This document shows, piece after piece, positions 14,300 to 48,560 of a stretch of DNA of 64,000 bases. The notes under the pieces were generated by a model. It saw only the letters and a program-made list of their open reading frames with translations, ran no database searches and was not told where the DNA came from. The DNA is from Eledone cirrhosa. Its lineage: Eukaryota. The stretch is from assembly GCA_964016885.1 (NCBI GenBank), contig OZ024762.1:6386001-6450000 (forward strand). Reading direction: 5' to 3'. Each line of letters begins with the position of its first letter. The stretch's first letter is position 1. Both the position numbers and the translations under genes were made by a program.

Positions 14300-14630
14300 G
14301 GACTATTTTAAGATCCTACTAGGAGCCCAGAATACCAGGGAGATCAGACAGCTGTTTGAGGAACTGGATATTGAGACAGGACCTTCGCCAGAGAGGGGCT
14401 TCAGAGAACGAAGAAGATCAAGACCCATGGAGAGGCATACAAAGTGATGAAGAGGTGTGATTTTGATGATATCATCCTGGAGTTCTGTAACCAGGCACTG
14501 GAGAAAGTTGCCCTTGATCACTAACATCATCTCAGTACCAAAGAAGGGAGATCTCTCTAACATGAACAACTACAGGGGAATCTCATTGATGTCACTTGTG
14601 GCAAAGACCCTCAACAGAATCCAGCCCGAG
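14300..14630 (+). mobile_element. LINE RT N-terminal fragment (RTE-like)
   Basis: NIISVPKKGDLSNMNNYRGISLMSLVAKTLNRI. Confidence 0.8.
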
Positions 14631-18818: not shown

Positions 18819-20304
18819 TTAGTGAGACACAAAAATACATACATTCTTGTAATGTTTTAGTTGCCATGTCTTCTAATTTTATTCTAAACACTCACATATA
18901 GCTACATTTATATATACAAACACTCTTCCTATTTAAACGTATATATTTTGAGAATCATAACTAAAACGCCTCCGGAGAAACAAAACTAAATATATACACG
19001 CAGCTACCTCTTCTAACTAAACATACATATTACTCTCCTTTATTATGAAACAAAACTAAACATGATCTGTATATATACACACACACACAGCTTCCTCTTC
19101 TAACATGTTACAACTATATTCATATATAAACGGTCTCCCTTTTATCTTAACAGATATTTATGAGGCGCAATATACAATCTTGTTCATACTGGAATAATAC
19201 GAAACTAAACCTCCTCTAGACATATTAATATAGAAGCTAAACCATACAGTTATATCTAACGAAGCATGGTAGCTCCATTACTCTGCCGTAAGACTCACTA
19301 CTACTACTTCTAGCATCCTCACCTCCTTGATAGCTACATCATCCACATATAAACGTTCTTCACTAGATACAAAACTAAATCTTTATATATACACAACTAA
19401 CCTATTCTATATTCCTAAGGAACAGCACCAGACCTGGAGACTACTACAACCCTATCTCAAGAAGAAAGGTAAATAAATTGTGAAATAAAAGAATAAACCA
19501 GTATTTTCCTTTGTTGCCTTATTATTTACTCCCTGTATATACACACACTAGACACCTCTTACACTGTAGGAAGACAAAAACCTTCTGTCACTGTATACTA
19601 GATTCATATTATATAAATAAATCCCCTCTATACAGGAGAAATGTTATTGCCTAGATACACACCTATTAGAAACAAGCCATCTCTATATACAGGTAAATAA
19701 CATAAAAGTAGACACGTCTGTATATAAGAAAACATCTAAACCCACATTGTGTGTGTCTCTTTATGAACATCATACACATATAAGATAAGAGGTTTTGATC
19801 TGTACATACATATCAATACATTCTCGCTAGATACTACACATACGTCTCTTAGGAAACTACTACTATTGTTCTTCTAGTTGTTTATAAGGATCTCACAGTA
19901 GAACGTGTACATGCTTCCTAAGAAGCAAGAGAGCTAACTGTATAAATACAAAGAAATTTAGTGTTCTTTACATTCAATGACACACAAAGCTTACTTCATG
20001 TCTATAATATACCTTCTTCTCTATATTGGAAGAAGTACCTCATTATATATTGAAGTTGTGTTCAATAGAGTACAGTATGTAGAACCATATGTACACAGTT
20101 ACCCTTTTCTTGAAAGGATACATCAATACTCTGTTCTCCTCTAGACAGGCATACTCACCATATAAACACTTTTGTGTATATAAAGCATATCTTCATTGTA
20201 AATTTAGAAGTTACACTACACAGATATAAAGACAACAACCTACAGACATATTAATACCCTTATATCTCTAGACTACTGTATTATATAAATATAGCTCAGG
20301 AGTT

Positions 20305-22530
20305 AGACATATATACATACGTATGTATATACATACATATGCATAAATATGTATACATATACATATACATGTATATATACACATACGTATGCATGAATAT
20401 ACATACATATGTGTATATATACATACGTATGTATACATATACATGCGTATGTATATATACATACGTATATTTACGCATACGTATGTGTATATACACATAC
20501 GTATATATACATGCGTATGTATATATACATACGTATGCGTATATACACATACGTATGTATACATACACATACGTATGTGTACATACACATACGTATGCGT
20601 AAATATACATACGTATGTATATATATACATATGCATGCATATATATACATACGTATGTGTATATACACATACGTATGTATATATACGTATACATACATAT
20701 GTATATATACATGCGTAAATATACATACGTATGTAAATACACATACGCATGTATATGTATTGGTATATACACATACGTACGTGTATATACACATACGTAT
20801 GTATATATATACATACGTATGTATATATATACATACGTATGTGTTTATACACATACGTATGTGTATATACACATACGTATGTGTATATATACACATACGT
20901 ATGTGTATATATGCATGCGTATGTATATATACATACGTATGTGTATATACACATACGTATGTATATATATATACATACGTATGTGTATATACACATACGT
21001 ATGTATATATACATACGCATGCATATATATATACATACGTATATTTACGCATACGTATGTATATATACACATACGTATGTGTATATATATATACATACGT
21101 ATGCGTATATACACATACGTATGTATATTTACGCATACGTATGTATATATACGCATACGTATGTGTATATACACATACGTATGTGTATATACACATACGT
21201 ATGTGTATATATACATACGTATGTGTATAAACACATACGTATGTATACATATACATGCGTATGTGTATTTATGCATACGTATGTATATATACATACGTAT
21301 GCATATGTATACATACGCATGTATATTTACGCATACGTATGTATATATACACATACGTATGTATATATATACGCATACGTATGTGTATATATACACATAT
21401 GTATGTGTATATACACATACGTATGTGTATATATACATACGTATGTGTTTATACACATACGTATGTGTACATATACATGCGTATGTGTATTTATGCATAC
21501 GTATGCATATGTATACATACGCATGTATATATACATACGTATGTGTATATACACATACGTATGTGTATATACACATACGTATGTATATATACACATACGT
21601 ATGTATATATACATACGTATGTATATTTACGCATACGTATGTATATATACACATACGTATGTGTATATATACACATACGTATGTGTATATACACATACGT
21701 ATGTGTATATACACATACGTATGTGTATATATACACATACGTATGTGTATATACACATACGTATGTGTATATATGCATGCGTATGTATATATACATACGT
21801 ATGTGTATATACACATACGTATGTATATATATATACATACGTATGTGTATATACACATACGTATGTATATATACATACGCATGCATATATATATACATAC
21901 GTATATTTACGCATACGTATGTATATATACACATACGTATGTGTATATACACATACGTATGTGTATATACACATACGTATGTGTATTTATGCATACGTAT
22001 GTATATATACATACGTATGCATAAATACACATGCATACATACGTATGCATATATATACATACGTATGTATATATACATACGCATGTATATGTATATATAC
22101 ATATGCATGTATATGTATATATACATACGTATGTATATATATATATACGTATGTGTATATACACATACGTATGTATATATACATACGCATGCATATATAT
22201 ATACATACGTATGTGTATATACACATACGTATGTGTATATACACATACGTATGTATATATATATACATACGTATGTGTATATTTATGCATAAATATACAT
22301 ACGTATGTATATACATACATATGTATATATATACATATGTATGTATATACATACATATGTATGTATATACATACATATGTATGTATATACATACATATGT
22401 ATGTAGATACATACTTAAGTATATATATACATATGTATATATGTACACATACATATGTATATATATACACACATATGTATGTATATATATACACATATGT
22501 GTGTATATATATATGTATGTTTATATAAAT
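20305..22530. repeat. 2.2 kb self-complementary satellite built on the palindrome ACATACGTATGT with TA/CA spacers
   Basis: Dozens of CATACGTATG units at a ~20-26 bp period. Confidence 0.95.
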
Positions 22531-24095
22531 ATAGGTAAGGAGTTGAACTTTTTTCTCTAGATAATATAAGTATGTGTATTCTATAGGATACTATTACCTT
22601 AAAACTGTGTGTATATATATATACACTTACTTCTATAGAATCCATACATATTAACACCCTTCTATCTCTAGGCATATGTATACATACAGAAAGAAATGGC
22701 CTCACTAGAATACTGCATTAGATACATTTCTTTCATGAAAGATGTTTCGAACTGAGTTCATACTTCTATTCCTATATACATACTGGGAGAGATATAGAAT
22801 ACAAATTTATTCTATATACAGAAGGAAATAAACTTACTAGAATACTGTATATATACACATTATAAATGTTTATAATAAGAAACTTCTTTATTAATACCTC
22901 TATTCCTATATACTTACTGGTAAGTATGAGAGAGGTATATATAGATATTATAACCTCTTACAGGAGATATACACAGCAAGAAATAAACTTGCTAGGATTA
23001 CTGTATTATATATATATACAGTTTCCATTCTCAAAGAAACTTTTCTATAGCACCACACTTACCTCTTTCAGTAAGAAGGATGTTTCTTACTGGGATTCTA
23101 TAGTGTACATACACATTAATTAATCTATTCTATATATACACTTCTTTCAAGAAGGATGTTTCTCACTAATTACATAAATATATACAGTATCTAAATACAT
23201 ATATTATGAGTGGAAGTTAAACGATCTACATGTAAGATACTACCTGTGTATATATATAATAAAATACAATGTTCTATAGGATATACTTACTTCTAAGTGA
23301 AATAAAGATTAATAAATAAACTACATTTTGTTGTTGGAGTTATTTTATTTCTTGAGACGACTGTGTGTATTTACACACTCAGGTGAGCTGGCGGAGATCT
23401 TCAACATACCTGGAAAGAAACAGAATATATTAATAAAAATAATCCAGATTACACAGCTCTAACACCAATAATTGTCTGGATGCAGAAATCAAACCTCTTT
23501 ATCCTGAACAGTTTAGTTTCTTATACGCCTCTAGATGAGGTATTACTGTATTTATAATATAATATATGGTTTTTTTATTATTGAGAAGGATAATAAATAT
23601 ATAAGCCTTCTAGATGTTACAGAGAAGTCTCTACATACAAACAGTAGATTCTTTGCTGTGTACACACAATATCTAGTAGTAAGTTTCTGTGTATTATATA
23701 CACACGTGTGTACAATGTTTGTATAACAAGGGAGTGTATTCTATGGAATACCATATCTATAGGAAACTATGTATGTGTAATATAATACATGGGGAGTTTT
23801 TTTTCTATTGAGAAGGATACTGAATATAATGTCTTCTAGATGTTAGGGGAATCTCTACGTACAAAAAATAGATGCCTTGATTAAAATATCCAGAGTTTTA
23901 TGTAAGTATCCTCGGGAAAAGTAGTAGAGAAGAGGGTTTTAACTTTGCCTTGTGTGTATATAGATGCTGCATATATACAATACTTCGAAGTGTGTTTATG
24001 TATAGAGAGAGGGTCTGTATTCTATATACTACAGTTTCTTATATAGCTCCGGATACTGTGTATAATGAGGAGATATACCTTTCTTCTAAGTAAGT

Positions 24096-30689: not shown

Positions 30690-31135
30690 ATAAGAACTAG
30701 AGAATGAAATCCATCTGGGACTTGGACAGGTGCATATCTGAGATGTAGGGCCACATCTTCCCCGGATTCTTCCTAAACCTTAGGCTGGTTGCTATCATGT
30801 TCGTCTCCAGCAGAGTGTCCCTCAGTAGTCTTCCATTTCGGTTGGTGTTGTTATGGAAGTACCAGCAGGGATCTTCATTGTTCTCCTTACTCAGATGTGC
30901 ATTGAAGTCTCCCAGAACAAGCAGGATGTTGTGAGTTTGTGGTGTTGACAGCTCTACGCACCTCCTCATGGAACTCCTCCGCACACACATCATTGTCTTC
31001 CTCAGTTGGTCTCAAGGCTGTCAGTCTTGGGTTTCCATTGAAGGTAACCCTCAACACTCGCGGCGAGACAGGTATGATTTCCCTCACCAATAGATTGGTT
31101 TTTGCACTGAAAACAAAACCCACTCCTACTGCAGC
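30690..31135 (-). mobile_element. LINE APE endonuclease fragment
   Basis: GVGF, LLVLGDFNAHL, NRNGRLL, SQMDFIL. Confidence 0.85.
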
Positions 31136-32061
31136 ATTTATCATGTTATATATATATATATGTACATATATATACACTTTATATATATGTATAACATATA
31201 TGTTGATGCCCTAAGGACAGACACTGGTCTGTTGGAGATGCAGGATATGGCAGCGATAATGAGGGACAGAGACCGCTGGAGAGAACTCGTCCATGGATCT
31301 CGGGAATTTTACCCGCCTTAGATAGATAGATATATATGTATATAAGTATATATATATTACTTATATACATATATATATATATTGACGAACATTACACTCT
31401 GTTATTGCTATCATACCATACATAGGTGAAACAGCTTGTTCAGCTTTACCACTTTGCTTATAAAGCTTGTATCTCCATTGCACATCTGCGGGGTCTGAGA
31501 CGCTGCTGTGGTAGGTGCATCAACTTTACAGCTTCACATGGTTTGTCCTACAGCCTGAATTGTCCTCCCATCATTTTTCCCACCTTACAGAGTTAAATCT
31601 GATCATTAAATGGGGCGTGGGCTTGGGTAAATCTTCCCTCAGTTTATCCTGAAGTGATGGAAAGAGACCTTTGTCCCCGGGTAAGAAATTGGTGTCTCAC
31701 CACAGTCATTGCCTCTTTTGCTCCCTCCCATATGGACACTGCAGTAAACGTGAGGGTCACTGCTTCCGTTGCCAAATGGAGTAGAATTTCCAGCCTGTGA
31801 CATTTGAGATGTTTGGTGGAGTCTGGCCAGCAATGGCTGGGTGGAACTTCATAGACTAAGTTAGTATTGAAGTGGGGCTACTGACCATCTCTGCCGAGGG
31901 ATCTGCAAATGTAGAGAAGTTGTAGTGTCTTTTGACACAGACAAAAGGATCTCCTGACCCACCTTCCTACCACTTTACAGTGTTTAAGGATGACAGACAA
32001 GGCTGACCCTGGGGGGATTTCAACTCACCACGGTGTCTGACACTAATCCACTGCCATTAAT

Positions 32062-32782: not shown

Positions 32783-33067
32783 ACACATGAAGTTTGCTTT
32801 GCAATCATAAGGTACCAGGTTCAATCACTGTGTGGAGTTTATTGGCCTTCGATCAAGTGAAACATTGTCAGTAGAAATTACATAGAACTGTTCAATGAGA
32901 ATTATGTTAAGGGTACATTTCTCTGTGGAATGCTCAGTCACTTACACACTAATGTTCACGAGTAGACAGAGACATGGATAGAAGAAAACAAGTGTTTTTC
33001 ATAAATTTTTTTATCAGTTTTGAAAAGAATATTTTTCAAATTTTTAACAAACATTTTGTTCAAATTG

Positions 33068-33393: not shown

Positions 33394-33728
33394 TTAATCT
33401 CCATCAATGTAAAATTTATTTCTACTCGACCTAAAAACTTGAGAATTAACAAAAGAAGGGTTCCCTTTATGCCGATTATTAATTGTAGTATCACATAGTT
33501 TATCTTGTTCTTGTTGATACAAAAAATTAATGCCAGAAGTAGCATTATTGTTACTTTCTTGGCAATGGTTGTTTGTCACTGGTTCTTCCATAGCAGCAAC
33601 AATAGAAGATGAAGAAGAATTAGTGTTGAGTATTTCTGTTAAATTGTCTTCAATAGGTCTGGAAGTAGAGATGTTAGAGGAATCCATCCTAAATGTGGCC
33701 GATGGTGATGGTAGCAAAGACCCTTCAG

Positions 33729-33759
<31 letters not shown>

Positions 33760-34599
33760 GATGATAACTGGTTCGACTTTAACAGCAGACTCTAAAGGTC
33801 GTTTCGGTTGATTTGATTCGGAGAAAATATTAGTTGTATTCTTGTTGAAGCGATGTGACAAAGCCCGAAGTGGTTCAGAATCAGTTCCTGCTTGGGGTGG
33901 CTTAATTGAAGGGAGATAACTATAGGGTTCTAAATTAACTTCTCTAGCTGCAGATTTGGAGCAATGATTTCTCAAGTTCTGCTCTTCACAGACACCAGTT
34001 GATGGTGAGTCAATGAAATCATTGTTACCTGCCTGAAAATTTACGTAGACCTCTCTTACTTTAGGTGTGTGTGTCAGTACACAGTCCTTGTTAGTATTAC
34101 TCTCTTCAGTCATGAAGTGTGTTGACGGGGCTTTATCTGTGATGTCTTCAGTTTTAATTTTAAAATTGGTTTGTGATTTCATAACTGATGGATTCTGACT
34201 GGAGGTAGACACTGAGAACGAGCTTGAAGTTGAAAAATTAACTTGGTTTTCTGTCAACAACTGTTTCTTGGGAGGATGAAATGTAACAGTTATTGTATCA
34301 GCTGCTGGATCCAAGGGGTTCTTATTTTCACAAGGTTGAACCTTAGGGGATGACACACCCCTTTCTGTATCGCACAGTTGTTTCAAGTCAGCAATCTCTA
34401 AACACAATGCTATTGTCTCTAATTGAGTCAGTAGGTCAGGGTCCAAGTTTAAGTGGCCCTTGTAAATGTATTCAGCAAAGGCATGGAGAGCTTCGCTGCT
34501 TACACTGTTGGGTAGATTGACCACAAGAAACTGGTTGTAGCGTGTGTCGTTGGTTGAAAGTAGCTTCGGACAGAGGGCTATCAAGACAATCTTATGAAC
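33394..34599 (-). CDS. Exon 7: BTB remainder (VHKIVLIALCP...EYIYKG...LEIADLKQLC) and S/T/D-rich tail to stop
   Basis: Acceptor ttccag|GTT, 401 open codons, BTB HKxVLxA and YIYxG motifs, VKVE/IKTE SUMO-type motifs. Confidence 0.9.
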
Positions 34600-37500
34600 C
34601 TGGAATAAACAAAAGAGAATAATGACATACAGAAAAATAGCACTACTAGGCACTGCACACGTTACAAAGAGTACCCCAGGACTTGCATATACAACATACA
34701 GAAAAATAGCACTACTAGGCACTGCACACATGTTACAAAGAGTACCCCAGGACTTGCATATACAACATACAGAAAAATAGCACTACTAGGCACTGCATAC
34801 ATGTTACAAAGAGTACCCCAGGACTTGCATATACAACATACAGAAAAATAGCACTACTAGGCACTGCACACATGTTACAAAGAGTACCCCAGGACTTGCA
34901 TATACAACATACAGAAAAATAGCACTACTAGGCACTGCACACATGTTACAAAGAGTACCCCAGGACTTGCATATACAACATACAGAAAAATAGCACTCCT
35001 AGGTAGTGCTTACATATTATGAAGTGTATTCCCAATACAATAGAACTATTAACACTCTACATATCCAAGACACACAGAACAATAAAAATAAGACAATAAT
35101 AATTGTTTCTACTTTAGGCACAAGGCCAACAATTACTCCAGTGCATTACTGGTACTTTATTTTATTGACCTCGTAAGGATGAAAGGCAAAGTTAACCTCA
35201 GCGGTTACACACACATACACATATATACATCATCCCCATCATTTAACATCCATTTTCCCTGCTAGCTATATATATATATATATAATTATATAAATCAACA
35301 AAGAAGAATACATTAAAAATCTTTATCCGCTGACAATGTTTTCATTGGTTCAAGGATGCATTGAAGGAGAACTTGAAGAATTTAGGAATTGATTCCAGAG
35401 ACATGGAAAGTCTCATTGTGAATCGCTCTACTTGGCATTCAAAAATATGGGATGGTATGAAAACCTTTAAGCAAAACAAGCTAATGCAAGTAAATATTAA
35501 GAATATAAGAAAAAAAAACAGCCACCCAAGGGAACATGAAATTAATAGAACTTTCTCTACTTGTAAAGTTTGTGGCAAAATCTGCCTTGGAAATGTAACC
35601 TTATTACATAAAGATGCTGTCTGATGATGTAGTGTCACCAGTTGAATGATTGAATCATCACATAGCTCCGATTGCCATTGAAATATGTATCACAGTTTAA
35701 TAGCTCTGATTGCCATTGAAATATGTATCACAGTTTAATAGCTCTGATTGTCATTGAAATATGTATCACAGCTTTATAGCTCTGATTGCCATTGAAATAT
35801 GTATCACAGCTTTATAGCTCTGATTGCCATTGAAATATGTATCACAGCTTTATAAATAAAGGATTTTTAAACATCTACTCTGAACTTCGCAATTGTTTGT
35901 CACAGACAGACAAATTATATTTGAAAGAAAATACATGATGTTGAGTGCTTAAATCTAATTGCATCATTATTCACTGATTGGTGTGTTGTATATGCAACCC
36001 CAAGTAGACATGTTTACCTAAGTATCATCAGGCTAGCATGAGTTAGATGAGTTGTCCTATTGTGAGACAAGCCAGATCAGGTGACTATGTCGTGACTTTA
36101 CAAGGCTGATTTTGGTTTGATGCCCATCCTAACAGTAAATTTAGTAGCGAAATCAAGCTTGTATGAAACCACATTTGGGATATATATATAAAACTATATA
36201 TATATAAAACTATATACATATAAAACTATATAAAATGCTTACCATTACTATGGAACTTCCATTTCCAATTGCAGCATCACACAGCCTTCCTTTCTTCCAA
36301 AGCTGTGCTAAACTGTCCATCATGTGATACTGATGTTCAGCTACAATATGTACTTTCTTAGACTGGCCTGCTGCTGTGTACTCCACCAATGGAGAAACTT
36401 CTTCGTCTTCTTCATGTTGTGAATATTGAGGTTCAGGCTCTATATATGCCAGTTTTTGTTGAGGGTAGTCATCTTCATGTTCTAAATACTGTACTTCCTC
36501 TTGTGGACAGTGATAGTCTTGTTGTGAATAATGCAGTGTTTGTTGTGAACACTGAGTTTCTTGTTGTGAACTCTGAACATCTTGTGAATACTGAAGATCT
36601 TGTGAACTTTGAAGATCTTGTTGTGAATACTGAACTTGTTCTTGTGAATATTGAGCTTGTTGTGAATACTGAACTTGTTGTTGTTGTTGCTGTGAGCCTG
36701 GAGGATCTTCTTCATCATCTAATAACGGAACTGAATTCTCAGGAATTGTCCTGTAAATAAAACGTAAATTCATCTTAATAGTTTCTGAAAAAAGATATAC
36801 TCTTCCTCTTCCTTCTCCTAATCATCATCATCATTGGTGGTGAATTGGCAGTATCGGTAGAGGGTCGGACGCCATGCTTTGACGCATAGAGTTACGGCCC
36901 TTGCCATTCTGAGTTCAAATCCCACCGAGGTTAACTTTGCCTTTCATCCTTACGGGGCTCGATAAAATAAAGTACCAGTAATGCACTGGGGTAATTGCTG
37001 GCCTTGTGCCAAAAGTAGAAACAATTATTATTATTAACATGGCTTAATGGTTAGAGCATTGGCCTTGCAATCGAAAGGTTGTGAGTTCAATTCTCAGGCA
37101 GGATGATGTGTTGTTTCCTTGAGCAAGACACTTTATTTCACATTGCTCCAGTTTACTCAGCTGTAGAAATGAGATGATAGAGACTGGGGTCCATATCATT
37201 CCACTGTAAAGTGGTCGTGGAGGTGCCATGGCAAAAAAGCACCCAGCACTCACTGTAAATGAGGTTGGTGTTAGGAAGGGCATCCAGCTGTAGAAGTCAA
37301 GCCAGAATCAGTTCCTGTCCGACCCTTGCAAGCAGGGAAAAGCGGACGTAAAATGATGAAAAGAAGGTGAAGGTGAAGCCACGCTTCATATTGGCTCCAG
37401 GTTTTTTCAACTGTTTACATTTATTTTGACTGTCTCTAACCCTTTATTCAAGTTTTAAACTTGATAAGAATTTAGAGCAAGTGACCCACCTAACACAGGT

Positions 37501-38688
37501 GGGTCACTTGTAATAATACGACACCTCTTGGTGGGGTGTTGTCTTTGAAAAAATTTTACAATCAACATATCTTTTAAAGAACGTTACCACTACAGAGAGT
37601 GAGAGTGTGAGAGAGAGAGTGAGAGTGTGAGAGAGAGAGTGTGAGAGAGAAAGTGAGAGAGAGAGCTGTAAGATAACATAGAGAGAGGGAGATGTCATTG
37701 TCAACAGTTCAACAAGACAGCGTTCTAGTGAAGGCAACTACTACAGAAGAAAAAAAAACAATATTGTTTTAAATGATATTGTTTTACAATTAAAACAGTC
37801 AAGTGGTTCTGACAGGAACAGCAACAACAACAACACCATCAATAACAACAGCATCAACGATAAGATTGAGAAAGATAATAACAACAACAGCCACAACAAC
37901 AAAGAAACACAATCCACAATGAACAATAGCACCCAGAAAATTTCTTTCGCTGGTGCTATCAAGTCATCCTTCAGAAAACTAAACTTTTCTGAGGATGAAA
38001 TAGGAAAAGCAAGGAGTCTTGTTGAAAACAATGGCCATATTGTCAGTCTCAAGACTCCTTTGGAACCGATCCAACATACGGTACGTCGAACTGTGACATA
38101 CCATATTATTGGATTAAAAAGCAAAAAGATTGACAGAGCTACAGAACCTTAGATTCAAAAGGCTCTGGGGCCAGTCTGGGCCCCAAAAATTTACATTCAA
38201 ATGAGCAGGGGTTTTGGCACAGTAAAGGTTAGATTTAACATCAAAGAAGAGGAAAAATCTAACTCTCTCAAGCCCCTACAAAATGATGAAATTATGCTCA
38301 TCCCATTCTACTGTGAAATGAGATCAGTAAGAATTAAAATTAAACAAATACCACTGGAAATAGACATTTCTTGGAGGACAATGTGGTACAAATACTTTGT
38401 TGTGTTTAGCCATATTGCAGTGTTTTGATGGTCTTATTCGTGCCACTCACAAATCTGGTACTTATTTCATCCCTGAGAAATATAGAAGTATTTAGTTACC
38501 AAATTTGAATCGGTTTCAGGATTCCATCTTGATTGAAGAAGTCAGAGTTCAGTTGGGATTCTTTGACATGGCTCAGATTAACACCAGGGAAGGAAGATTC
38601 TTTGCTGCCAATTTTAGAAAATGAAAGCTTGTTCAACTCATCATGGCTTAATATTTGGGCAGGATCAAATTTTGGTCTTTTGTGCTGT

Positions 38689-38726
<38 letters not shown>

Positions 38727-40224
38727 AAAAATAGAGTATTTAAACATGTTATTAGCTATAGAGTAACTGGAACTTAGTTCTCAGGGAGATTACAAATAAA
38801 TAAATAAATATAGCAATCTATTGTGGTATATATTTAATATATAGTAATCTATTGTGGTATATATATTTGTCTGTTTCAGATGAGCAGTGCAGCCAAATCC
38901 TGTTCCATTCTGTCGTTTGGACTTTCCTGTTTTAAACTACAGCATGTTATATCAGCAGAGCAGACAAGTGCAAGCATATCTCAGATGTTCCCCCGCAAAA
39001 CCATGAAGGCCAAGGAATGGAATTAAATTGTCCAAACCTACGACATTGCTCTTCTCTGTAAAGATTTCACAGCCCTAGCATCATTCTTTTATAGTCAGCC
39101 TATAAATTTTCAGCTGACCCTCATACATCGCAACTAACCATATTTAGTGGCCATATTGCTACCACCACATGCACCGGCCCATTCTCTAGCAGAACAGCTT
39201 TGCCTCACATTTGAATTCTTCAAAACAAAGTATTCAGTTACCTTGTGTTTGTAGAGGATATGTTTATCCAGATGGATCTTCTGTCGGAAGGAATTGGAAC
39301 AAAACAGACATTTAAACGCTCGAACATCTGAGTGGATTGCCAGGTGACGTTTTAGGTTGCTGCTTGTTGTGGCTTTGTAGTTACATTCAGTGCAGCAGTG
39401 GCGTCTGATACCTAGATGGTAAAATAGTAGTAGTAGTAGTATAGTAGCAGTAGTAGTAGTGGTAGTAGTAGTAGTAGTGGTGGTGGTGGTTTTGATGGTG
39501 TAGTAGTAGTGGTGGTGGTGATAGTGGTTTTGATGGTGTAGTAGTAGTAGTAGTGGTGGTGGTGGTGGTAGTGGTAGTGATGTTGGTGGTGGTAGTGATG
39601 GTAGTGGTTTTGATGTAGTAGTAGTGGTGGTGGTGGTGGTGATGGTGGTGGTGGTGGTGGTGGTGGAGATAGTGGTGATGGTAGTGGCAGTGGTGATAGT
39701 GTTGTTGTTGGTCGTAGTGGTAGTAGTAGTAGTAGTAGTAGCACCAAAGGTAGTAGTAGTAGTAGTAGTGGTGGTAGAGCACATAATAAAATGAAAAGGA
39801 AGTAAATATTGCAGCATAGATATTTCATTATTTCTTTATATATATACATACACATACATATACATACATACATACACATACATATATGTATTCATCTTCT
39901 TGCTCTTGCTCGATGAGACTGGGACCCCCTTAGGTCAGTGACCCCAAAGACATCATCACGTCGACCAAATCCACCAGTACTCCCCATTGCTGGCAGTCAC
40001 GTGCCAGCCCCTCTGCATCATCCTAGATGGCATCAAGCCTCTGGATATCTTCCTTGGTGACTTCCAGCCATCTGGTGCAGGGCTTTTTCCAGCCTTTAGC
40101 TGCTTTGATGAACGAGAGTAAGAGAATCAGCCAGAGCCCATCTCATCCACCCACACGCAACTCTCAGCACTGCTATAGAGCCATTGGAACTGGGTGGTGA
40201 TCTTGGGAGGCAAGCCAATGAGCT

Positions 40225-40265
<41 letters not shown>

Positions 40266-40598
40266 TCATCATCATCATCGTTTAACGTCCATATTCCAGG
40301 CTCGCATGGGTTTGGACGGGAATTTTCCCACTTGAGGCAAGATTGGTTGTCCTGCTCGTATAGGACTGTCTGGCGGGTTATCTACGGCTGGATGCCCTTC
40401 CTAACACCAACCACGTTTACAGTGTGGACTGGGAGGTTTTTACCGTGTTACCTACACGGCCACATTACAGCGTGGACTGTGTGTTTTTTTGTTGTGACAC
40501 CTACACGACCTCATTTGTTTCGGGCTGGATGTTGTGGTACCAACATGTATATATATATATATACATAATATATATACATATATATATATATATGCATA

Positions 40599-40681
<83 letters not shown>

Positions 40682-43600
40682 TATATCAAGTAAGTATGTT
40701 TTGAAACAGTGAGCAGGTTTGAAATTAGAAAATAGAATAGCTTTCACCGTATTTTTGACTAAAGGAATTTTAGCCTGATAATGGGGTTTAGAACCCTCAG
40801 ATAAATGGAAAAAGATGAGTATTGACGTATATATAAATACAAAACCACACTATAACTGCATCAAATGAAAAATGAAAGTGAGATGATTTAACTTTCATAG
40901 GTGAGTCTATGGCAGGACTAGAGAAGAAATTCCAAACCTGGAAACATGGCCTCACAAATTAGGCATAAGAGGGATTGCAGATTTACTAGAGAGGAGATTG
41001 TGTTGGTATGGTCATGTGATACGTATAAAGGATGACAGCTGTATAAAAAAGTGCAGGGCGATCAATATATTGATATGATTCCTGGTTAACTTTCCTGGAG
41101 AACTTTCTGGCATTGGATCTCAGTGTTACGTCCTTTTTCCTTAGATAATGCCTCCAAGGAAGAGATCCGCCATTGGTCAAAAAACAGCGAAAGCTGAGAG
41201 AGGGAAAAGAAGAAAAGCAAATGAATCGTCAATGGAGGCTGCAATTAGACGATCGGAAGATGCTGAATGTAAAGCTACTTCAAGAGTGTTAGAAAACTAC
41301 AACCAGCGTTGTATTTAAGATATAGGTTATTTATGTACTCCAGATGGTCATGGGCACTTTCATTTTTCCAGATATTGATTATAGGGGCCCCCCGGGGGCA
41401 GATAACTCCCTTTTAACTGCTTCCTTGGAATCGTCTGAAGCACTGCAGTGCAATGCAACAAAACGTCATAACTTCTGGAGTTTGCAGCCGGTTTTCTCCA
41501 AACTTGACACATGGGCTATGCATGTTCTACAGATGAATTTGAACACTCAGAATTGGCACATGTTGAGTAGGGGACCCTTGGGGGCAGGAACCCCCTTTTG
41601 GAAAAAGCTGATGATTTTGTACAAGTATACTTTTCGAAGCAGCACTGAACTATTGACCTGAATGCTATTTAATACCCAAGCAATACCTCTGCTAGTATAT
41701 ATATATGTATCATCATCATCACCGTTTTACATCTATTCTTCCACGCTAGCATGGGTGAGACAGGTTGTCCTGTTGTGGGCAGTGCCAGGTCGGGTGAACT
41801 TCTTGCTACTGAGGCAGCGGGATAGACAGATGGTGTCAAATACCAAGGCATACCCCGGGGAAGAATGTACCCCACATCCACCCATGTTATCTATGCCCTC
41901 CGGTGTTCCCTTTGCGGGTCTTTATACATCGAACAAACAGGACACAGTATGGCAGACCGTTTTGCTGAGCATTTGAGGGACATACGACTCGTTTTGGATA
42001 CTCCTGTCGCCCGTCATTTCTGTTCTTCTGGTCATTCTTTCCTACACATCTCAGTCCTGGGTGTCCTTTTACATCATGGATCACAAACCTCGTGCACCAG
42101 GACTGAATAGAATCTGATTCACCGCCTTGGGTCCTATTCCCCTCTTGGACTCAACTCACCTCCCCAATTTCTTTAATACCTCGTCCATTATAACATGCAC
42201 TTGTACATTTACCCCTAGATTCCTATCTCATGATTATAAACAACTAATACATGCTGACTATATATGCACACTCCACTTTTCCCTTCACAGCTCTGTATAC
42301 ACACATACACACCCTAATATTAACATACTTTTGCTCATAGCTTCGTACTTACATGCACACACACATTTCTTCTTAGCTTCATACGGACATATAATAACAC
42401 ACACAAACACATGCTTATGCACTTGCTCAAGTATAGCTCTTTTTACAAAACGGTAGACGCGCTCCATCATCCACTTTTCTAAAAAATAATCATACACAAA
42501 ACGCCAGCACCAACAGTTTTGCAAGAGATGTCAACATGAATGAACCAGTTATTTTTATCTAAAGACATTTTTTCCAATTCCATCCAGCCCGTCCCTTCAA
42601 TCTATCTTATTTCTCATTCTTCCTTCTGATGAAGGACTAGCGTACCTCTGAAATATGTATAATAAAATATACTTGATCACAAGATATCTATATTGTTAAT
42701 ATTTTGAATTAATAACTCTGGAAAACATTTTTTCCGTTGAGTGCTTCCAATCTATTGTAAAACTCATTCTTTGATGTATTCATTGAACCTTAACTTTTAA
42801 ATATATATATAAATATATGTATATATACACACACACATATATATATATATATAGTGAAGGTATGCATCTTACTGGTTAGGCTATTTAGCTGGTAAAAATA
42901 AGTTGTACCTGTAAATTGAAGGGCCAGCCTTGACACATTCTGTGTCACACCAAATCTCTCTAAGAACCACGTTAAAGGTACACGAAAAGGTTGTTCCATT
43001 GATCAAAACAACTTGAACACTTGTCATCATAGCTGACGAAGTACCATTTTATATATCTAGAAGGGTTGAGAGAACCCTTCAGTCGCGTCAAGGACATGAC
43101 AGCCTCTCCTGTGCACTAGTAGAATGTGAGACTGTACATAAGTGAGATGCAGATCCCTGGCCTGTCTGGGAGAGCAGTGGCCCTGCTTCAGTACTGTCTT
43201 GGTTTATGTAGACCCATCTAACCCTTGCTACCAGGGTAAGTGGACATTAAAATGATGATGATGGCATATATAGAGAGAGAATGTGTGTGTGTGTGTGCAT
43301 GAAAATTATGAAATTAAGAAAATATACAGAAAAATTTGTTTACCAACCTAAATGTTTATTTCTGTGTTTGTACCAGTTAGGTTTTCTATCAGTGGAATAT
43401 TTACACTTGTTACATTTGTAAAGTCCTGCCCTGAGCACTGGCTGAAGAGACACGGAGGGCTGCTAAACATAAGAAAGAACAAACTATAAGAACACACACC
43501 AATTTAACAATATTTACTCTCTTTTTTGTTACCATATTCCTAATGGAAAACACTGCCTAAGATGTTCAAATCCCTTTGAAAACAATCAATGATATCAAAG

Positions 43601-46600
43601 GGTTTCTCTCTCCATAGTAACGGAGGGTTTCTCTCTCACTCTCCATGGCAACAAAAGGTTTCTCTCACTTTCTATGGCAACAGATTTTCTCACTCTCCAT
43701 AGCAACATAGGGTTTCTTTCACTCTCCCTGGCAACATAGGGTTTCTCTCACTCTCCATGGAAACAATGTTTCTCTCACTCTCCATGGCAATGGAGAGTTT
43801 GTCTCACTCTCCATGGCAACAGAGCGTTTCTCTCACTCTCCATGGTAATACAAAGTCTCTCTCACTTTCATGGTAACGGAGGGTTTCACTTTGGAGGTGA
43901 ATATTACACCAGTTTCAGATTGACATGAAATTCATATTTCCTACTGTTTTTGGTGTTTTGAATAAATATTTCCTTCAAAACGGTAGAAAACTGGTAAAAA
44001 ATCATTAAGTAATGGGCGTTGTGAAACAAATACTATACTCTAAACGACACTTAAAATATTTTAAATATAAAAATATAAAAACTCATGTGAATTTCAGACC
44101 ATCTAAACATAATGTGTTGATTATCTAACTCGGTTTATAAACGGGGTTTGATCTTGGCCTATTTCTCAGACATAAAATAGGGAGTTGGCTTCTATTGAAG
44201 TATATGCAATAAATGACGTTTAAAGCTCACATCTATGTAGGTTTGGCTGGCCTCATATAAGGAGTTTTCTTGGGTGTTTTAATGTTGTTTAATGGGTGTC
44301 ATGTTGTTGTAAAAGCTCACACCTATTCAGGTTTAGCTGGCCTCTTACAAGGTTGTATCTCATAGGAGGCTTTTTGGGTGTTTTAATGAAAAGAGCTCCA
44401 GTCCTATCATATTGTTGGTTGTTACAGCTCACCCCTATGTAGGTTTAGCTAACCTCCTATGAAGTTTTATCTCACAGGTATTTTCATGAAAGGGGCCCCC
44501 AATCCTATCATGTGTGTCATAGTTCACACATCTATGCAGGTTTACCTGGCCTCATAAAACGTTTCTTGGGTGTTTTAATGAGGTCCTCAATCCTATCATG
44601 TAATTGTTACAGCTTATATGTATGTAGGTTTACCTGGCCTCGTATGAAGTTGCCTCTCATAGGAGGTTTTTTTAGGTGTTTTAATGACAAGGGACCCAAT
44701 GCTATCATGTTGTTATAGCTCACCCCTACGTCAGCATAGGTATTTCGATAATAAGGGCCGCCAGTGCTATCACGAAAAGGAACATGAAATGAAGCACTTT
44801 GTTCAAGAACACAATACAATGCCTAGTCCAGGAATCGAAATCACAACCTTATGATTGTGGGGCCAACACCCTAACCACTAGGCTACATACCTTCACACTG
44901 AAGATAAAATGACATTACCTTTTTAAGATTTTGTGTAGTTTTAAATAAGGTGGGGACTGCATCTTTGGTTAGACGAGTTGTTTGACCTGTTCTTTTGAAG
45001 CAACTTTGTTCAAAGTGATCTGAACACAACACTGCTGTTTCTGAAGGCCAATAATTCTTTTGTTTCATCTGGAGTAACCAACATTGCTGCAGAACTGCAT
45101 CTTTCGGAAACCTGGAGATTTCCAGAAAAAAGAAAAAATATATTTATTTATAAACATGAGTAATTGGTGATAGGGGGGGGCATCCAGCCATAGTAAACTT
45201 GCTAAACAAAACAAAGGATCAGGAAGACTTGTCAGCTGTATCAAAGATTGACAACTTCCCTAGTGTTAGAGTCATAATAAAAATGCTCCCAGTGCACTCA
45301 GCAGAGTGCAGGAACACATGTAAGCTAGATATGGCCCCTAGCATACCTGAGAGGTCAATGACTTTGAATAAGTACTGACTTAGTCTGTTACAACTCGTCC
45401 AAAACTTGCTAGTAGAGAAAACAGATGTTATACGATGATGATGATGATATGATAAGTATGTGTGAGTGATTTCTCCTTTATATTATTTTAATATTAAGTA
45501 GAGGCCTGCTGTGTGCATCCTGTTTAGATACACCATATCTCTGCATGTTGTAAGAGGCAAGTAAAAGGGCATCAAATAAGACTCCATGATGAGATTGAAG
45601 CTTGTCATGAGGCCCGACCACTCTTTCTCTATCACTGCCCTCTCAGCTGGGCCAAAAACATAAGCACCATAGTGTTGAAGTGTAGTAGTGCTGGTGCTAT
45701 GATAAAATTCACCCAGCACACACTGTAAAATGATAGAACTGGTGCCATGAAAAAATCACACAGTCCACCTTGTCAGGTGATAGTGGTGGTGGTATCATGA
45801 GAAAATGAACCTTGTACACACTGTGAAATGGTTAGCATTAACAATAGCATCTCGCCATAGAAATCATGCCAAAATGGACGATGTGAACAAGACGCAGTCA
45901 TCTGATTTGGCTGTCTAGCCTCAAGACATGATAACCCGTCTAACCTATGTGAGCATGAAAATAGATGTAAAATGGTGATATGTATTAGTGTATATGTATG
46001 ATTTAGTGTATGTGTGCGTGGATGTGTATATGCATTAGTGTATGTGTGCGTAGATGTGTATATGCATTAGTGTATGTGTGCGTAGATGTGTATATGCATT
46101 AGTGTATGTGTGCGTAGATGTGTATATGCATTAGTGTATATGTGCATGGATGTGTGCTCGTGCCTATTCTATCTATAATTACATGTATTAACATGTTCAT
46201 CTTTACTTCATCTTTTGGGTACAATATCTTTAATCAAAGACACTTCCTAACGCCAACCACATTTACAGAGTGAACTGGGTGCCTTTTTATCGTAATACCA
46301 AAATGATCAACTGACAGGTTAGACTGGGCGCTTTTTGTCATGTCACCATCATGACCACCTTACAGGGAGGGCTGAGTGTTCTTTCACCATCATATGTACC
46401 TAATATGGTGGACTAGGGGCTTTTGTTGTGTCACCAGCATGATCACCTTACTGAGTGGACTGGGAGCTTTTAGCCATTTTCGCAGCATTGTAGGGGAGTG
46501 TGTCCAGCTTCCATGCATGGGTTAGACAAGAAAGGTGTATCAGATGTGGAAGGTTAGAGGAGAGGAGGTGTGGAGCATGGCTTAGTGGTTAGAGCATTGG

Positions 46601-48198
46601 CCTTGCAGCCGAAAAGTTGCGAGTTCAATTCTCGGACCGGGTGATGTGTTGTTTCCTTGAGCAAGACACTTTATTTCACATTGCTCCAGTTTACTCAGCT
46701 GTAGAAATGAGATGATAGGGACTAGGGTCCCTATCATTCCACTGCAAAGTGGTCGTGGAGGTGCCACGGCAAAAAAGCACCCAGCCCACACTGTAAATGA
46801 GGTTGGTGTTAGGAAGGGCATCCAGCTGTATACAATATGTATAAATATTTCGTATCTCCAAAGAAATACAGTTTTAGGAAGCCGTAGCTATGCAAACACC
46901 GGGGATACAAAATATTTATACATATTGTATAAAGCTATGCTTTAAGCGAAATCCTATTTCTTTTCTATTATAAGTTGAGCCAACTTATGCAGCTTCATAT
47001 GCAAATGAGATTAATCACCTCATTTACACAGACGAGAAAACTATATATTCTCGCCTGTCTTCTAGTCCAGCAGTCGCAAGCGGTGGGAGGGACCGTCCTG
47101 ACGAAGGCCAGTTAAGCCTGAAATGCATAGACGGTTGTCCCCCTTGCTTCTGCTGGACATCACCAGAATATTGCCAGAAATTAAAAAAAACGGTTAAAAA
47201 TTAAATAAAAATGGCATAGGCAATACAATGCAAGAAGAGGAAACAGAATAGTACCACTGATGATGTCTCAGATGTGTGACGAAAGAACTTTGATAGACTA
47301 TATATATATATATATATGTGTGTGTGTTTTTTTAACCGTTGGTCAATCAATGATAAACATTGATTGCCAGATAAATTAACTATCAAGATATAAAAGATAC
47401 AGAAGCCAAAACCAATCCAAACCAAACAGTGAGTGTGTTCTGTTATTATTTCTGACTATATTATAACAATATGACCCTCCCCAAGTATAATTAATATATA
47501 TATGTCAATACACATATAAATATATATATATATATGTCTATACACATACACACACACATATATATATATATACAATAATAATTGCAGCTTTCTCTAAACT
47601 TTATTACATATTACCATGTGTTTCCATACTGATCAGCTCGGGTTTGATCATGCGATCGGATCCAGACTCTTAATCAACACTTCTTCAGATATGAGAGTTT
47701 CCATGGGTGGTCCCATCCATATCTATATACACATATATATATTTCTTCTATTCTTAAAACATCTCTTCTAAATGTCTATCTATCACGACAAATTACTTAG
47801 CAGTGTTAACTCTCTTTGTTTAACTATATATATATATATATATGTTTCTGAATTTGTTTAGCAACATGACCCTCCCAAAGTATAACAATATATATATAAG
47901 CATGTGTTTTAAATAAAAGAAAAAATATTTTATTAGAATTAGTAAAATATTTCAAACGCTAAATATTACCAGAAATACGACAATATTGTTAACGAAATAT
48001 TTCAACTGCACTCTCTAATAATCAACTACCACCACAAGCAATCGATTAGTTAATAAAGACTTCTAATAATGTAGGCGTGGTTTGGGAAGCAATATGTATT
48101 TATTTATATACTCACAGATGGAAGCTTTTCTGACAACTTTCTGAGGTTACACTCTCGCAATTCAATGCCGCACACTGTAGTGTATCTGTTGGATACAT
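33394..48198 (-). CDS. Spliced gene, 7 coding exons (48198-48116, 45111-44919, 43462-43348, 39411-39242, 38684-38500, 36750-36243, 34599-33394), ~819 aa THAP / 3x C2H2 / BTB-POZ protein
   Basis: Assembled by hand. Every intron is GT..AG and the phases match (2,0,1,0,2,0). Summed CDS is 2460 nt with an open frame. The THAP domain, the C2H2 linker and the BTB domain each continue across a splice junction. Confidence 0.88.
34625..35005. repeat. 71-bp tandem repeat, ~5.4 copies, abutting the last splice acceptor
   Basis: Units at 34625, 34694, 34765, 34836, 34907, 34978. Confidence 0.95.
35340..35625 (+). mobile_element. RTE/BovB-like LINE C-terminal fragment (intronic, antisense to the gene)
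   Basis: FKDALKENLKNLGID..NRSTW..CKVCGKIC. Confidence 0.7.
35662..35853. repeat. 38-bp tandem repeat, 5 copies
   Basis: ATAGCTCTGATTGCCATTGAAATATGTATCACAGCTTT. Confidence 0.95.
36243..36750 (-). CDS. Exon 6: acidic/Q-rich QYSQ heptad repeats plus BTB N-terminus (HQYHMMDSLAQLWKKGRLCD)
   Basis: Acceptor tttacag|G, donor ATG|gtaagc (ORF 36210..36773). Confidence 0.9.
36838..37360 (+). mobile_element. SINE family A followed by SINE family B/C composite
   Basis: Family A at 36838-37030, then TGGCTTAATGGTTAGAGC...CCTTGAGCAAGACACTTTATTTCAC...GTTAGGAAGGGCATCCAGC. Confidence 0.85.
37740..38375 (+). mobile_element. Probable LINE ORF1/gag-like 5' fragment
   Basis: An N-rich stretch, then ISFAGAIK and SVRIKIKQIPLEIDISW, with stops. 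Resembles ORF1 starts; family not determined. Confidence 0.4.
38500..38684 (-). CDS. Exon 5: linker (HKRPKFDPAQ...KPIQI), includes possible NLS KRPK
   Basis: (TC)n polypyrimidine tract, acceptor tcacag|CAC, donor TG|gtaact. Phase 2 joins exon 6 to give TGG. Confidence 0.8.
39242..39411 (-). CDS. Exon 4: C2H2 fingers 2 and 3
   Basis: CTECNYKATTSSNLKRHLAIH and CLFCSNSFRQKIHLDKHILYKH. Acceptor ctag|GT, donor AAG|gtaact. Confidence 0.9.
39425..39778. repeat. (TAG/TGG)n triplet tract
   Basis: Visible directly; adjacent to the exon 4 acceptor. Confidence 0.95.
41085..41695 (+). mobile_element. Probable non-autonomous Helitron
   Basis: Short ORF MPPRKRSAIGQKT..RRKANES..AAIRRSEDAE resembles RepHel N-termini. 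The 3' end is ...CTGCTAG|T with an eroded hairpin. The 5' boundary is uncertain. Confidence 0.55.
41860..42670 (+). mobile_element. Penelope-like element 3' fragment (GIY-YIG endonuclease remnant plus 3' repeat)
   Basis: VIYALRCSLCGSLYIEQTG...RFAEHLRDIR...PVARHF...H...*NLIHRLGS..PLGLN, with an in-frame stop. Confidence 0.85.
42620..42670 (+). ncRNA. Degenerate hammerhead core at the 3' end of a Penelope-like element
   Basis: CTGATGA(42626)-AGG..CCTCT-GAAA-TATGTATA. Stem I is unpaired. It lies downstream of the GIY-YIG remnant. Confidence 0.45.
43348..43462 (-). CDS. Exon 3: C2H2 finger 1 (YKCNKCKYSTDRKPNWYKHRNKHL)
   Basis: Acceptor tttag|CAG (NAGNAG), donor G|gttggt. Phase 0 in and phase 1 out bridges exons 2 and 4. 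Confidence 0.85.
43598..43890. repeat. ~30-bp degenerate minisatellite
   Basis: GGGTTTCTCTCACTCTCCATGGCAACA units. Confidence 0.85.
44919..45111 (-). CDS. Exon 2: THAP C-terminal half (LFPKD...W...LCSDHF...AVPTLF)
   Basis: Acceptor ctccag|G, donor AAG|gtaatg. Invariant THAP P, W, CxxH, F and AVPTxF box are present (ORF 44883..45068). Confidence 0.92.
46577..46830 (+). mobile_element. tRNA-derived SINE family B/C composite
   Basis: Near-identical to 37039-37290. Confidence 0.85.
47065..47158 (+). ncRNA. Minimal type I hammerhead ribozyme (Penelope/retrozyme type), intact core
   Basis: Stem I ACCGTC/GACGGT, CTGACGA at 47098, stem II AGGC/GCCT, GAAA at 47120, palindromic stem III ATGCAT, AUA triplet, extended stem GTCCAGCAG/CTGCTGGAC. 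Confidence 0.85.
47249..47300 (+). ncRNA. Degenerate hammerhead motif
   Basis: CTGATGA(47257)-T-GTC..GAC-GAAA-GAAC-TT, with imperfect stem I. Confidence 0.4.
48116..48198 (-). CDS. Exon 1: MYPTDTLQCAALNCESVTSESCQKSFH, N-terminal half of THAP domain
   Basis: ATG at 48198, CxxxxC, donor CT|gtgagt. Too short for the ORF track. Confidence 0.85.
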
Positions 48199-48199
48199 C

Positions 48200-48560
48200 A
48201 CTAAATTATAAAAACAAGTTGTACAGAGAGAGTGTCACGTTTGCAGGGAGAGCGGCGCGAATAAACACACACCGGAAGTAGTATATCAAACACTACCGAT
48301 AAATTATAGGAATTTAAACCATTACAAACAACATTAAACACATCTACAAATGAGGAAATGGTTAGCAGCTAATTTCGTCCTATATTTATTGTAAAAGAAA
48401 ACGCGAGAAAGATATGTTTATATAGCGATAACAAATTAGAGAATGCAAGTTGACAAGATGGGTACTATGTATTTCCGGTATGTTCTATTTATGGAAGAGC
48501 GTCAATTATTAAAGAGGTGAAGACGGCTTCTGGTATCAGGGAGAGCTTGTTTACTATATA
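48200..48560. promoter_or_regulatory. Proximal promoter of the THAP-ZF-BTB gene with two oppositely oriented ETS-type sites
   Basis: ACCGGAAGT at 48271 and ATTTCCGGT at 48471, with local CpG enrichment (GCGGCGCGA) just upstream of the ATG. Confidence 0.55.

What the first reader, a model, noticed from the sequence alone, without database searches (positions are those of the whole stretch)
33394..48198. THAP + 3x C2H2 + internal BTB: atypical transcription-factor architecture
Seen: phase-compatible exons join a complete THAP domain (C2CH, AVPTLF), three C2H2 fingers, a Q-rich repeat and then a BTB domain in the middle of the protein. Established: ZBTB proteins carry BTB at the N-terminus with fingers C-terminal, and THAP is the P-element-transposase-type DNA-binding domain, normally dimerised by a coiled coil. 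Inference: a lineage-specific exon-shuffled factor with two different DNA-binding modules upstream of a BTB dimerisation module. Exons 1 and 3 are invisible to the ORF track.
Basis: partly seen in the sequence, partly recalled or inferred. Interest (0 to 1): 0.7.

Follow-up and report, generated by a model that had tools for sequence, protein, structure and literature searches.

The report
Octopus THAP–zinc-finger–BTB transcription factor
This is a real octopus gene whose protein carries two kinds of DNA-reading domain in front of a pairing (BTB) domain, the reverse of the textbook order; the same gene is already annotated in three Octopus species and belongs to a little-studied cephalopod family that puts many different DNA-reading heads in front of this BTB.

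Summary
Confirmed, with one correction. Seven GT-AG exons on the minus strand give an 819-aa frame: THAP, three C2H2 fingers, linker, Q/E-rich repeat, BTB, long tail. An exon at 38684-38500 is required; without it the finger and BTB exons are out of phase. A spliced contig of one public run joins exons 4-5-6, so fingers 2-3 and the first BTB residues share a transcript. One 718-aa protein with the same order is annotated in Octopus sinensis, O. vulgaris and O. bimaculoides, and the last is tabulated as 'THAP BTB' in PMC10027918. The internal BTB is the rule in its family: cephalopod paralogues put THAP, CENP-B, FLYWCH, CG-1, STPR or DUF3504 heads before it. The fingers are what is special: 3 of 72 internal-BTB proteins have them, all orthologues. 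The orthologue's BTB models as a strand-swapped homodimer. Most likely a dimeric sequence-specific regulator. A side lead is stronger: a paralogous locus appears to splice 16 alternative heads onto one BTB body, a mirror image of Drosophila lola/mod(mdg4). The window gene shows no such array.

The parts
48271..48316 (-). Conserved upstream element ending in an ETS-type ACTTCCGG motif; probable promoter or 5' UTR start
   Evidence: By-eye match (about 39 of 46 letters, one gap) between the window and the 5' end of the O. bimaculoides cDNA printed in the supplement row; the motif name is recalled
48116..48198 (-). Exon 1 coding part: ATG, first half of THAP (C9, C14); phase-2 donor GTGAGT
   Evidence: tblastn 76% over 21 aa
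44919..45111 (-). Exon 2: second half of THAP (P30, W39, C57, H60, F61, AVPTLF); phase-0 donor
   Evidence: PF05485 8e-12; THAP2 2d8r 1.6e-13
43348..43462 (-). Exon 3: C2H2 finger 1 (helix residues -1,2,3,6 = R,P,N,K)
   Evidence: last 7 letters fit the contig
39242..39411 (-). Exon 4: C2H2 fingers 2 (T,S,N,R) and 3 (Q,I,H,K)
38500..38684 (-). Exon 5: basic linker exon that brings finger and BTB exons into phase (0 in, 2 out)
36243..36750 (-). Exon 6: Q/E-rich spacer, then first part of BTB (from aa 379, at about 36362)
36501..36684 (-). Degenerate 21-nt (7-aa) coding tandem repeat; spacer 132 aa here against 66-67 aa in Octopus
   Evidence: 9 repeat units against 2-3
33394..34599 (-). Exon 7 coding part: rest of BTB (to about 34366) and a 320-aa low-confidence tail with two [VI]KxE motifs and a poly-Asp run; stop TAA
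   Evidence: (PF00651)
32838..32843 (-). First AATAAA after the stop; candidate poly(A) signal, untested

Best explanation
A host gene for a dimeric, sequence-specific transcription regulator, orthologous to Octopus LOC115223897 / LOC106875595. Shown: one reading frame, conserved domain order, splicing of fingers 2-3 to the BTB-start exon. Modelled: the internal BTB forms the strand-swapped homodimer of ZBTB-type domains. Inferred from what these families do: the dimer holds two heads, each with a THAP and a three-finger array, on flexible spacers, so it binds paired or composite sites (about 9 bp per finger array plus a THAP site) or bridges two sites; BTB replaces the coiled coil that dimerises vertebrate THAP proteins, and BTB or the tail recruits chromatin co-regulators, more likely repressive. 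Origin (inferred): a THAP-BTB member of the cephalopod internal-BTB family gained a phase-0/phase-0 finger block in the octopod line. Odds: single gene with this order 0.95; BTB homodimer 0.8; both DNA-binding modules functional 0.7; repressor rather than activator 0.55.
For: Open 819-aa seven-exon frame. Spliced 844-nt contig at depth 11.9 in run X1 joins E4, E5 and E6 at the predicted bases; X1 has no depth in several unique intron bins while X2-X4 run through them. Three named orthologues of 718 aa. Identity to them: fingers 89%, BTB 83-84%, THAP 72-75%, tail 48-50%. Of 12 finger specificity positions 11 are identical in all four proteins and one is R/K. BTB pocket residues: D407 column is D in 33 of 33 family rows, K421 column is K or R in 32 of 33. 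Best fold matches are BCL6, myoneurin, LRF and Miz-1 BTBs. Two-copy model of the O. sinensis BTB: score 0.69, best of 3 controls 0.02, contacts agree 93% or more between runs, pLDDT 85 or more; the mark was reached by 21 of 30 microbial pairs and 0 of 23 single chains, and by 17 of 29 eukaryotic pairs (animals 7 of 16) and 0 of 30 single chains; strand 296-299 packs on 380-384 of the partner. Window BTB groups with the three orthologues (SH-aLRT 100) in a 10-row clade (97) that holds THAP-BTB proteins without fingers.
Against: No binding, expression-pattern or functional data exist here. The kind of run X1 is not on record; RNA is my inference from its spliced contig; one study only. The dimer pass may be memory of solved BTB dimers (only 1 of 7 eukaryotic pairs without an older relative passed), and it used the orthologue, not the window protein. 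Finger 1 is below the Pfam cut-off, has W at the usual hydrophobic position and P in the helix, and its linker is non-canonical. The fingers were not folded with confidence (the alignment had non-homologous N-termini). The tree is the quick one on 116 columns, and the sister of the window BTB is unresolved. dN/dS was not computed.
Confidence: 0.72

Rival explanations
1. The protein works mainly as a heterodimer with paralogous internal-BTB proteins, among them the many-headed LOC106877732-type isoforms, so that its THAP+finger head is combined with other heads.
For: Family BTBs are 42-60% identical to the orthologue's and share the pocket residues; several loci carry different heads on an identical BTB; ZBTB heterodimers are solved (Miz-1/BCL6 and Miz-1/NAC1 fusions, 4u2m and 4u2n).
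Against: Not tested: the one complex job went to the homodimer. Most ZBTB domains prefer homodimers (recalled). No co-expression data.
Confidence: 0.25
2. Only one head matters: the fingers read DNA and the THAP is a relic or a protein-binding module (or an isoform that skips E3+E4, 285 nt and in frame, gives a plain THAP-BTB).
For: THAP is less conserved than the fingers (72-75% against 89%); the position that is Lys24 in THAP1 (role recalled) is Leu here; skipping E3+E4 keeps the frame.
Against: All four zinc ligands, the P/W/F/P core and the AVPT box are kept in four species, and THAP is well above the tail's 48-50%; no skipped form was looked for.
Confidence: 0.2
3. Two genes (THAP-fingers ending in exon 5, whose read-through meets a stop; a separate BTB gene) joined by gene prediction.
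For: Read-through of the E5 donor gives an immediate TAA, with AATAAA sites about 1 kb further; E4 and E6 alone are out of phase.
Against: One contig joins E4-E5-E6, and X1 has no depth just past E5 (bin 38360-38467); single 718-aa proteins in three species.
Confidence: 0.03
4. A transposon (P-element/THAP9-like) or its remnant rather than a host gene.
For: THAP is shared with P transposases; PMC10027918 calls these genes transposon-derived.
Against: No transposase catalytic domain in the orthologue, the exons or 127 frames in and upstream of the gene; six introns; intact frame in four species; closest solved THAPs are human THAP2 and THAP1. BTB is a host domain (recalled), contrary to that paper's wording.
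Confidence: 0.02

Closest known systems
Octopus LOC115223897 (XP_029650480.1), O. vulgaris CAI9740151.1, O. bimaculoides LOC106875595 (XP_014779299.1; 'THAP BTB' in Table1.XLSX of PMC10027918)
   Same: Same domains in the same order, collinear over all seven exons; 83-89% identity in fingers and BTB.
   Different: Window protein is 819 against 718 aa: expanded Q/E repeat, five extra N-terminal residues, shorter C-end. The published label omits the three fingers; no function is given in the passages and table rows I saw.
Cephalopod internal-BTB family (LOC106877732, LOC106877745, LOC106879774, LOC106872006, LOC106875079, Sepia DUF3504-BTB and others)
   Same: Same BTB clade; transposon-type DNA-binding head before the BTB; unstructured tail with [VIL]KxE motifs; intron at the same place in the BTB (9 fragments end and 7 start there among 39 partial hits).
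   Different: Only this orthologue group has C2H2 fingers before the BTB (3 of 72). Several paralogues appear to have alternative heads; none was found for the window gene.
ZBTB/POK proteins (BCL6, Miz-1, LRF, PLZF)
   Same: Long-form BTB with a strand-swapped dimer and charged pocket, plus C2H2 fingers.
   Different: Order reversed (fingers before BTB), THAP added, BTB only 20-25% identical.
Vertebrate THAP1/THAP2
   Same: N-terminal C2CH THAP, best solved matches.
   Different: BTB where these have a coiled coil (recalled); three extra fingers.
Drosophila CG6689 and CG10431 (THAP-ZAD-ZNF; passages of PMC9810180)
   Same: THAP added by its own two exons to a finger protein that has a dimerisation domain: a precedent for THAP plus C2H2 plus dimer module.
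   Different: ZAD instead of BTB; independent origin.
Drosophila lola and mod(mdg4) (recalled; mod(mdg4) seen only as a cited title)
   Same: BTB combined with zinc-finger or FLYWCH modules; paralogues of the window gene seem to use many alternative modules on one BTB.
   Different: There the BTB is the constant 5' part and of the Tramtrack type; here the BTB is 3' and the window gene has a fixed head.

Membership tests
THAP domain proteins | C2CH ligands, P/W/F/P core, AVPTIF box, N-terminal position | tested here: met
   C9, C14, C57, H60; P30, W39, F61, P81; AVPTLF 79-84; PF05485 above cut-off
THAP domain proteins | [quoted passage not shown] | not testable with these tools
   needs an assay
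THAP1-type vertebrate factors | HCF-1-binding motif [DE]HxY followed by a coiled coil | tested here: inconclusive
   EHQY at 387 fits the motif and is found in 2 of 33 family rows, both orthologues, but it lies in the modelled dimer interface; no coiled-coil predictor was run
P-element transposase / THAP9 | Catalytic transposase domain after the THAP | tested here: not met
ZBTB/POK | BTB at the N-terminus | tested here: not met
   BTB at about 379-496 of 819
ZBTB/POK | C2H2 fingers C-terminal to the BTB | tested here: not met
   all three fingers precede the BTB; no finger family on E7
ZBTB/POK | Long-form BTB fold, strand-swapped dimer, charged pocket | tested here: met
   by models and alignment only, on the orthologue:
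Tramtrack-group BTB (lola, mod(mdg4)) | Tramtrack-type N-terminal motif and arthropod BTB clade (definition recalled) | tested here: not met
   no such motif at the window BTB start; the two rows with it (P0096, P0151) lie far off in the tree
Many-headed BTB loci (LOC106877732 type) | Array of alternative 5' DNA-binding exons on one BTB body | tested here: not met
   127 complex frames of 50 aa or more in the gene span and 16 kb upstream gave only the known THAP exon; short half-exons or exons beyond the window would be missed
Cephalopod internal-BTB family | BTB inside the cephalopod clade | tested here: met
   31-row clade, SH-aLRT 95, quick tree of 121 rows; named members are Octopus, Argonauta and Sepia
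Cephalopod internal-BTB family | Transposon-type DNA-binding head before the BTB and a shared intron inside the BTB | tested here: met
   the family is defined here from these searches, not by a curated model

The most novel reading that the evidence does not exclude
The gene is a fixed-head member of a combinatorial transcription-factor system of cephalopods that I did not find described: several loci splice arrays of alternative 5' DNA-binding exons (THAP, Psq, CENP-B, FLYWCH, CG-1, STPR, DUF3504) onto a constant BTB body, the mirror image of Drosophila lola/mod(mdg4), and BTB heterodimers pair this gene's THAP+finger head with those heads. The many-headed loci themselves are likely real (about 0.85, from RefSeq isoforms and identical BTB bodies under different heads); that the window protein pairs with them is untested (about 0.3).
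Probability: 0.25. Interest if true: 0.75.

Novelty: new member of a known kind. Interest (0 to 1): 0.4.

Why it matters
The gene alone is a further orthologue of an annotated but uncharacterised octopus gene. It shows that an internal BTB can take over dimerisation in a THAP factor and that a finger block can be added to such a factor and kept under strong constraint. The larger point is the family: most of the Octopus THAP-BTB entries in the published table appear to be isoforms of one locus, so counts of independent transposon domestications may be too high, and cephalopods may have evolved a promoter- or exon-choice route to transcription-factor diversity comparable to lola and mod(mdg4). 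That is directly testable with long reads and single-cell data.

Tried and rejected
Six-exon model without E5: out of frame; the other candidate phase 0-to-2 exons in that intron were repeat-derived and are not in the contig. No whole genome is held for this window, so copy number, paralogues in this species and synteny were not checked. No RNA holder listed by record among 4 runs; only 36200-39420 was laid. Decapod orthologue: THAP-plus-finger-1 search returned only the Octopus cluster among 265 candidates of 394-1257 aa, and the BTB search 6 proteins among 460; both are word-seeded, so absence in squid, cuttlefish and Argonauta is weak. ESM Atlas gave ordinary BTB-finger clusters for the orthologue's first 420 aa and nothing useful for P0103; the organisms of P0103, P0119 and P0123 remain unknown. 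Full-length AlphaFold model: mean pLDDT 50.8, pTM 0.31; only THAP and BTB confident. The careful tree did not finish; the quick tree is cited, with 121 rows of near-full BTB hits, duplicates and 39 partial hits left out. dN/dS not run: no orthologue coding DNA was held. Literature searches: (3 papers, 2 listed; the preprint of the same paper; 3 papers), and no paper; the library lacks most subscription journals. Figure 3 of PMC10027918 and four of its five supplements were not read beyond one term search, and table cells were cut at about 400 characters. Earlier scan findings: none on this gene or genome. Pfam on 104 frames in 1-33300 found no neighbouring gene.

Full report
Observation. The window is repeat-rich animal DNA. 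On the minus strand, seven exons with GT-AG introns give an open frame of 819 aa from the ATG at 48198 to the TAA at 33394. A chain of only six exons fails, because exon 4 ends in phase 0 and the Q-rich exon starts in phase 2; a 185-nt exon at 38684-38500 repairs this. Pfam finds THAP on exon 2, C2H2 fingers on exons 3 and 4 and BTB on exon 7. The BTB is split by the last intron and starts at about residue 379 in exon 6.

One transcript. Four public runs hold the last exon, none on record as RNA. Laid on 36200-39420, run X1 gave one 844-nt contig in three pieces that match exons 4, 5 and 6 and skip both introns; the record positions are those predicted from the model, and the single mismatch at its upstream end is the one expected if it continues into exon 3. 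X1 has no depth in several unique intron bins, whereas X2-X4 have contigs through them, so I read X1 as RNA and X2-X4 as DNA. The contig ends at residue 382, in the first BTB strand. Junctions E1-E2, E2-E3 and E6-E7 were outside the stretch.

Orthologues. The last exon finds a 718-aa O. sinensis protein with THAP, finger and BTB annotations; its cluster has 3 members, from O. sinensis, O. vulgaris and O. bimaculoides. It hits all seven exons in order. Identity to the window model is 89% in the fingers, 83-84% in the BTB, 72-75% in the THAP and 48-50% in the tail, so the domains are constrained, and the source is probably an octopod more distant than these three are from each other (inference). 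The Q/E spacer has doubled through a 21-nt repeat. A 46-nt element upstream of the ATG resembles the start of the O. bimaculoides cDNA (by eye).

In print. PMC10027918 (seen: passages, section 5 whole, rows of Table1.XLSX found by term search; not the figures) says that Octopus THAP and CENP-B factors mostly carry BTB/POZ and lists the O. bimaculoides orthologue as 'THAP BTB'. The fingers are not in that label. All 28 'BTB' occurrences in that table are on rows coded as Octopus. PMC9810180 (passages only) reports Drosophila finger proteins that gained a two-exon THAP. Six other searches found no paper.

The family. A profile search of 1.84 billion representatives listed 150 best hits. I scanned 62 proteins with Pfam, chosen as top hits or for an internal BTB: heads in front of the BTB include THAP, CENP-B, FLYWCH, CG-1, STPR, DUF3504, FAR1-like and THAP plus DDE. 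All 50 near-full BTBs scoring 100 bits or more against a seed of internal BTBs are internal, against 22 of 92 weaker ones (the seed favours this, and cluster members are counted). Named members are Octopus, Argonauta and Sepia. In a quick tree the window BTB joins its three orthologues (100) in a 10-row clade (97) with THAP-BTB and DUF3504-BTB proteins, inside a 31-row clade (95). Among 39 partial hits 9 end and 7 start at the site of the window's BTB intron, which suggests a shared intron. C2H2 fingers before the BTB occur in 3 of 72 internal-BTB proteins, the three orthologues. So the internal BTB is ordinary for this family and the finger block is the specific addition; it is flanked by phase-0 introns. 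Three unnamed proteins with THAP or FLYWCH before a BTB lie outside the cephalopod clade, so the order may be older.

Mechanism. The orthologue's BTB models with confidence and matches BCL6, myoneurin, LRF and Miz-1 BTBs best. Two copies give a strand-swapped dimer, score 0.69 against 0.02 for the best of 3 controls, with contacts agreeing 93% or more and pLDDT 85 or more; the mark was reached by 21 of 30 microbial pairs and 0 of 23 single chains, and by 17 of 29 eukaryotic pairs. Solved BTB dimers are many, so this shows likeness, not binding. The pocket Asp and Lys/Arg are kept in 33 of 33 and 32 of 33 family rows. The THAP is closest to human THAP2 and THAP1, and no transposase core is present. 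I therefore infer a homodimeric regulator with two THAP-plus-finger heads, in which BTB does the job of the THAP coiled coil; repression is a guess from ZBTB and THAP precedent (recalled).

Side lead. In the published table 16 of 26 distinct BTB-labelled accessions share one 3' body, that of LOC106877732, under different N-termini (THAP, Psq, CENP-B, FLYWCH), with head coordinates given from 320,408 to 500,350 on one scaffold (my count). LOC106877745 and LOC106879774 show two heads each, and fetched proteins repeat the pattern: P0023/P0024, P0051/P0054, P0103/P0119. The main text has no occurrence of 'isoform' or 'promoter' and cites mod(mdg4) only for FLYWCH. This looks like lola/mod(mdg4) in reverse. 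It rests on gene models that I did not check against reads. The window gene shows no alternative head in 127 frames scanned.

Verdict. Real, expressed in part by direct evidence, conserved, and already half recorded: a new orthologue within a known but uncharacterised kind. Interest 0.4 for the finding; the family-level reading would deserve about 0.75.

Noticed in passing
O. bimaculoides LOC106877732 (Table1.XLSX of PMC10027918; P0023, P0024): 16 accessions put different THAP, Psq, CENP-B or FLYWCH heads on one BTB body; heads are spread over about 180 kb. In several, the shared exon supplies the C-terminal end of the THAP. Mirror image of lola/mod(mdg4); not discussed in the passages I read.
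   Followed up: partly
P0103, P0119, P0123 (unnamed): THAP-BTB and FLYWCH-BTB with an identical body (P0103/P0119), BTB outside the cephalopod clade; P0103 and P0123 share the THAP C-terminal motif of the LOC106877732 common exon, which hints that the many-headed system is older than coleoids.
   Followed up: partly
P0057, P0058, P0060 (unnamed): The opposite arrangement: one N-terminal BTB body with different C-termini (C2H2 array, CENP-B head, DDE_1-like repeats), like lola itself.
   Followed up: no
P0002, P0016, P0051, P0055: DUF3504 (Crypton-type recombinase-derived, label recalled) fused before the same BTB in cuttlefish and octopus; shorter forms that end before the BTB exist (P0007, P0015).
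   Followed up: no
P0038 (XP_014774298.1): THAP, helix-turn-helix and a DDE_3 transposase domain in front of the BTB: a possible captured whole transposase.
   Followed up: no
window 36349-36338 (aa 387-390, minus strand): EHQY fits the HCF-1-binding motif of vertebrate THAP proteins and occurs only in this orthologue group (2 of 33 rows), but lies in the modelled dimer interface.
   Followed up: partly
window 36840-37390 and 46570-46830: Very high-copy SINE-like repeats in introns; enormous contig depth.
   Followed up: no
window 41826-42107 (+): Frame that resembles a GIY-YIG endonuclease of Penelope-like elements (recalled likeness; no Pfam hit).
   Followed up: no
window 6694-7473 (+), 14451-14738 (+), 30697-31210 (-): Decayed LINE reverse-transcriptase and endonuclease-like fragments by eye; no Pfam hit at 0.001.
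   Followed up: no
window 8714-8884 (+): A lone C2H2 finger before a stop (PF00096 6e-5, below cut-off), of the kind that ends LINE reading frames (recalled).
   Followed up: partly
window 20255-22590: About 2.3 kb of degenerate (TA/CA)-type satellite that gives many spurious long frames.
   Followed up: no
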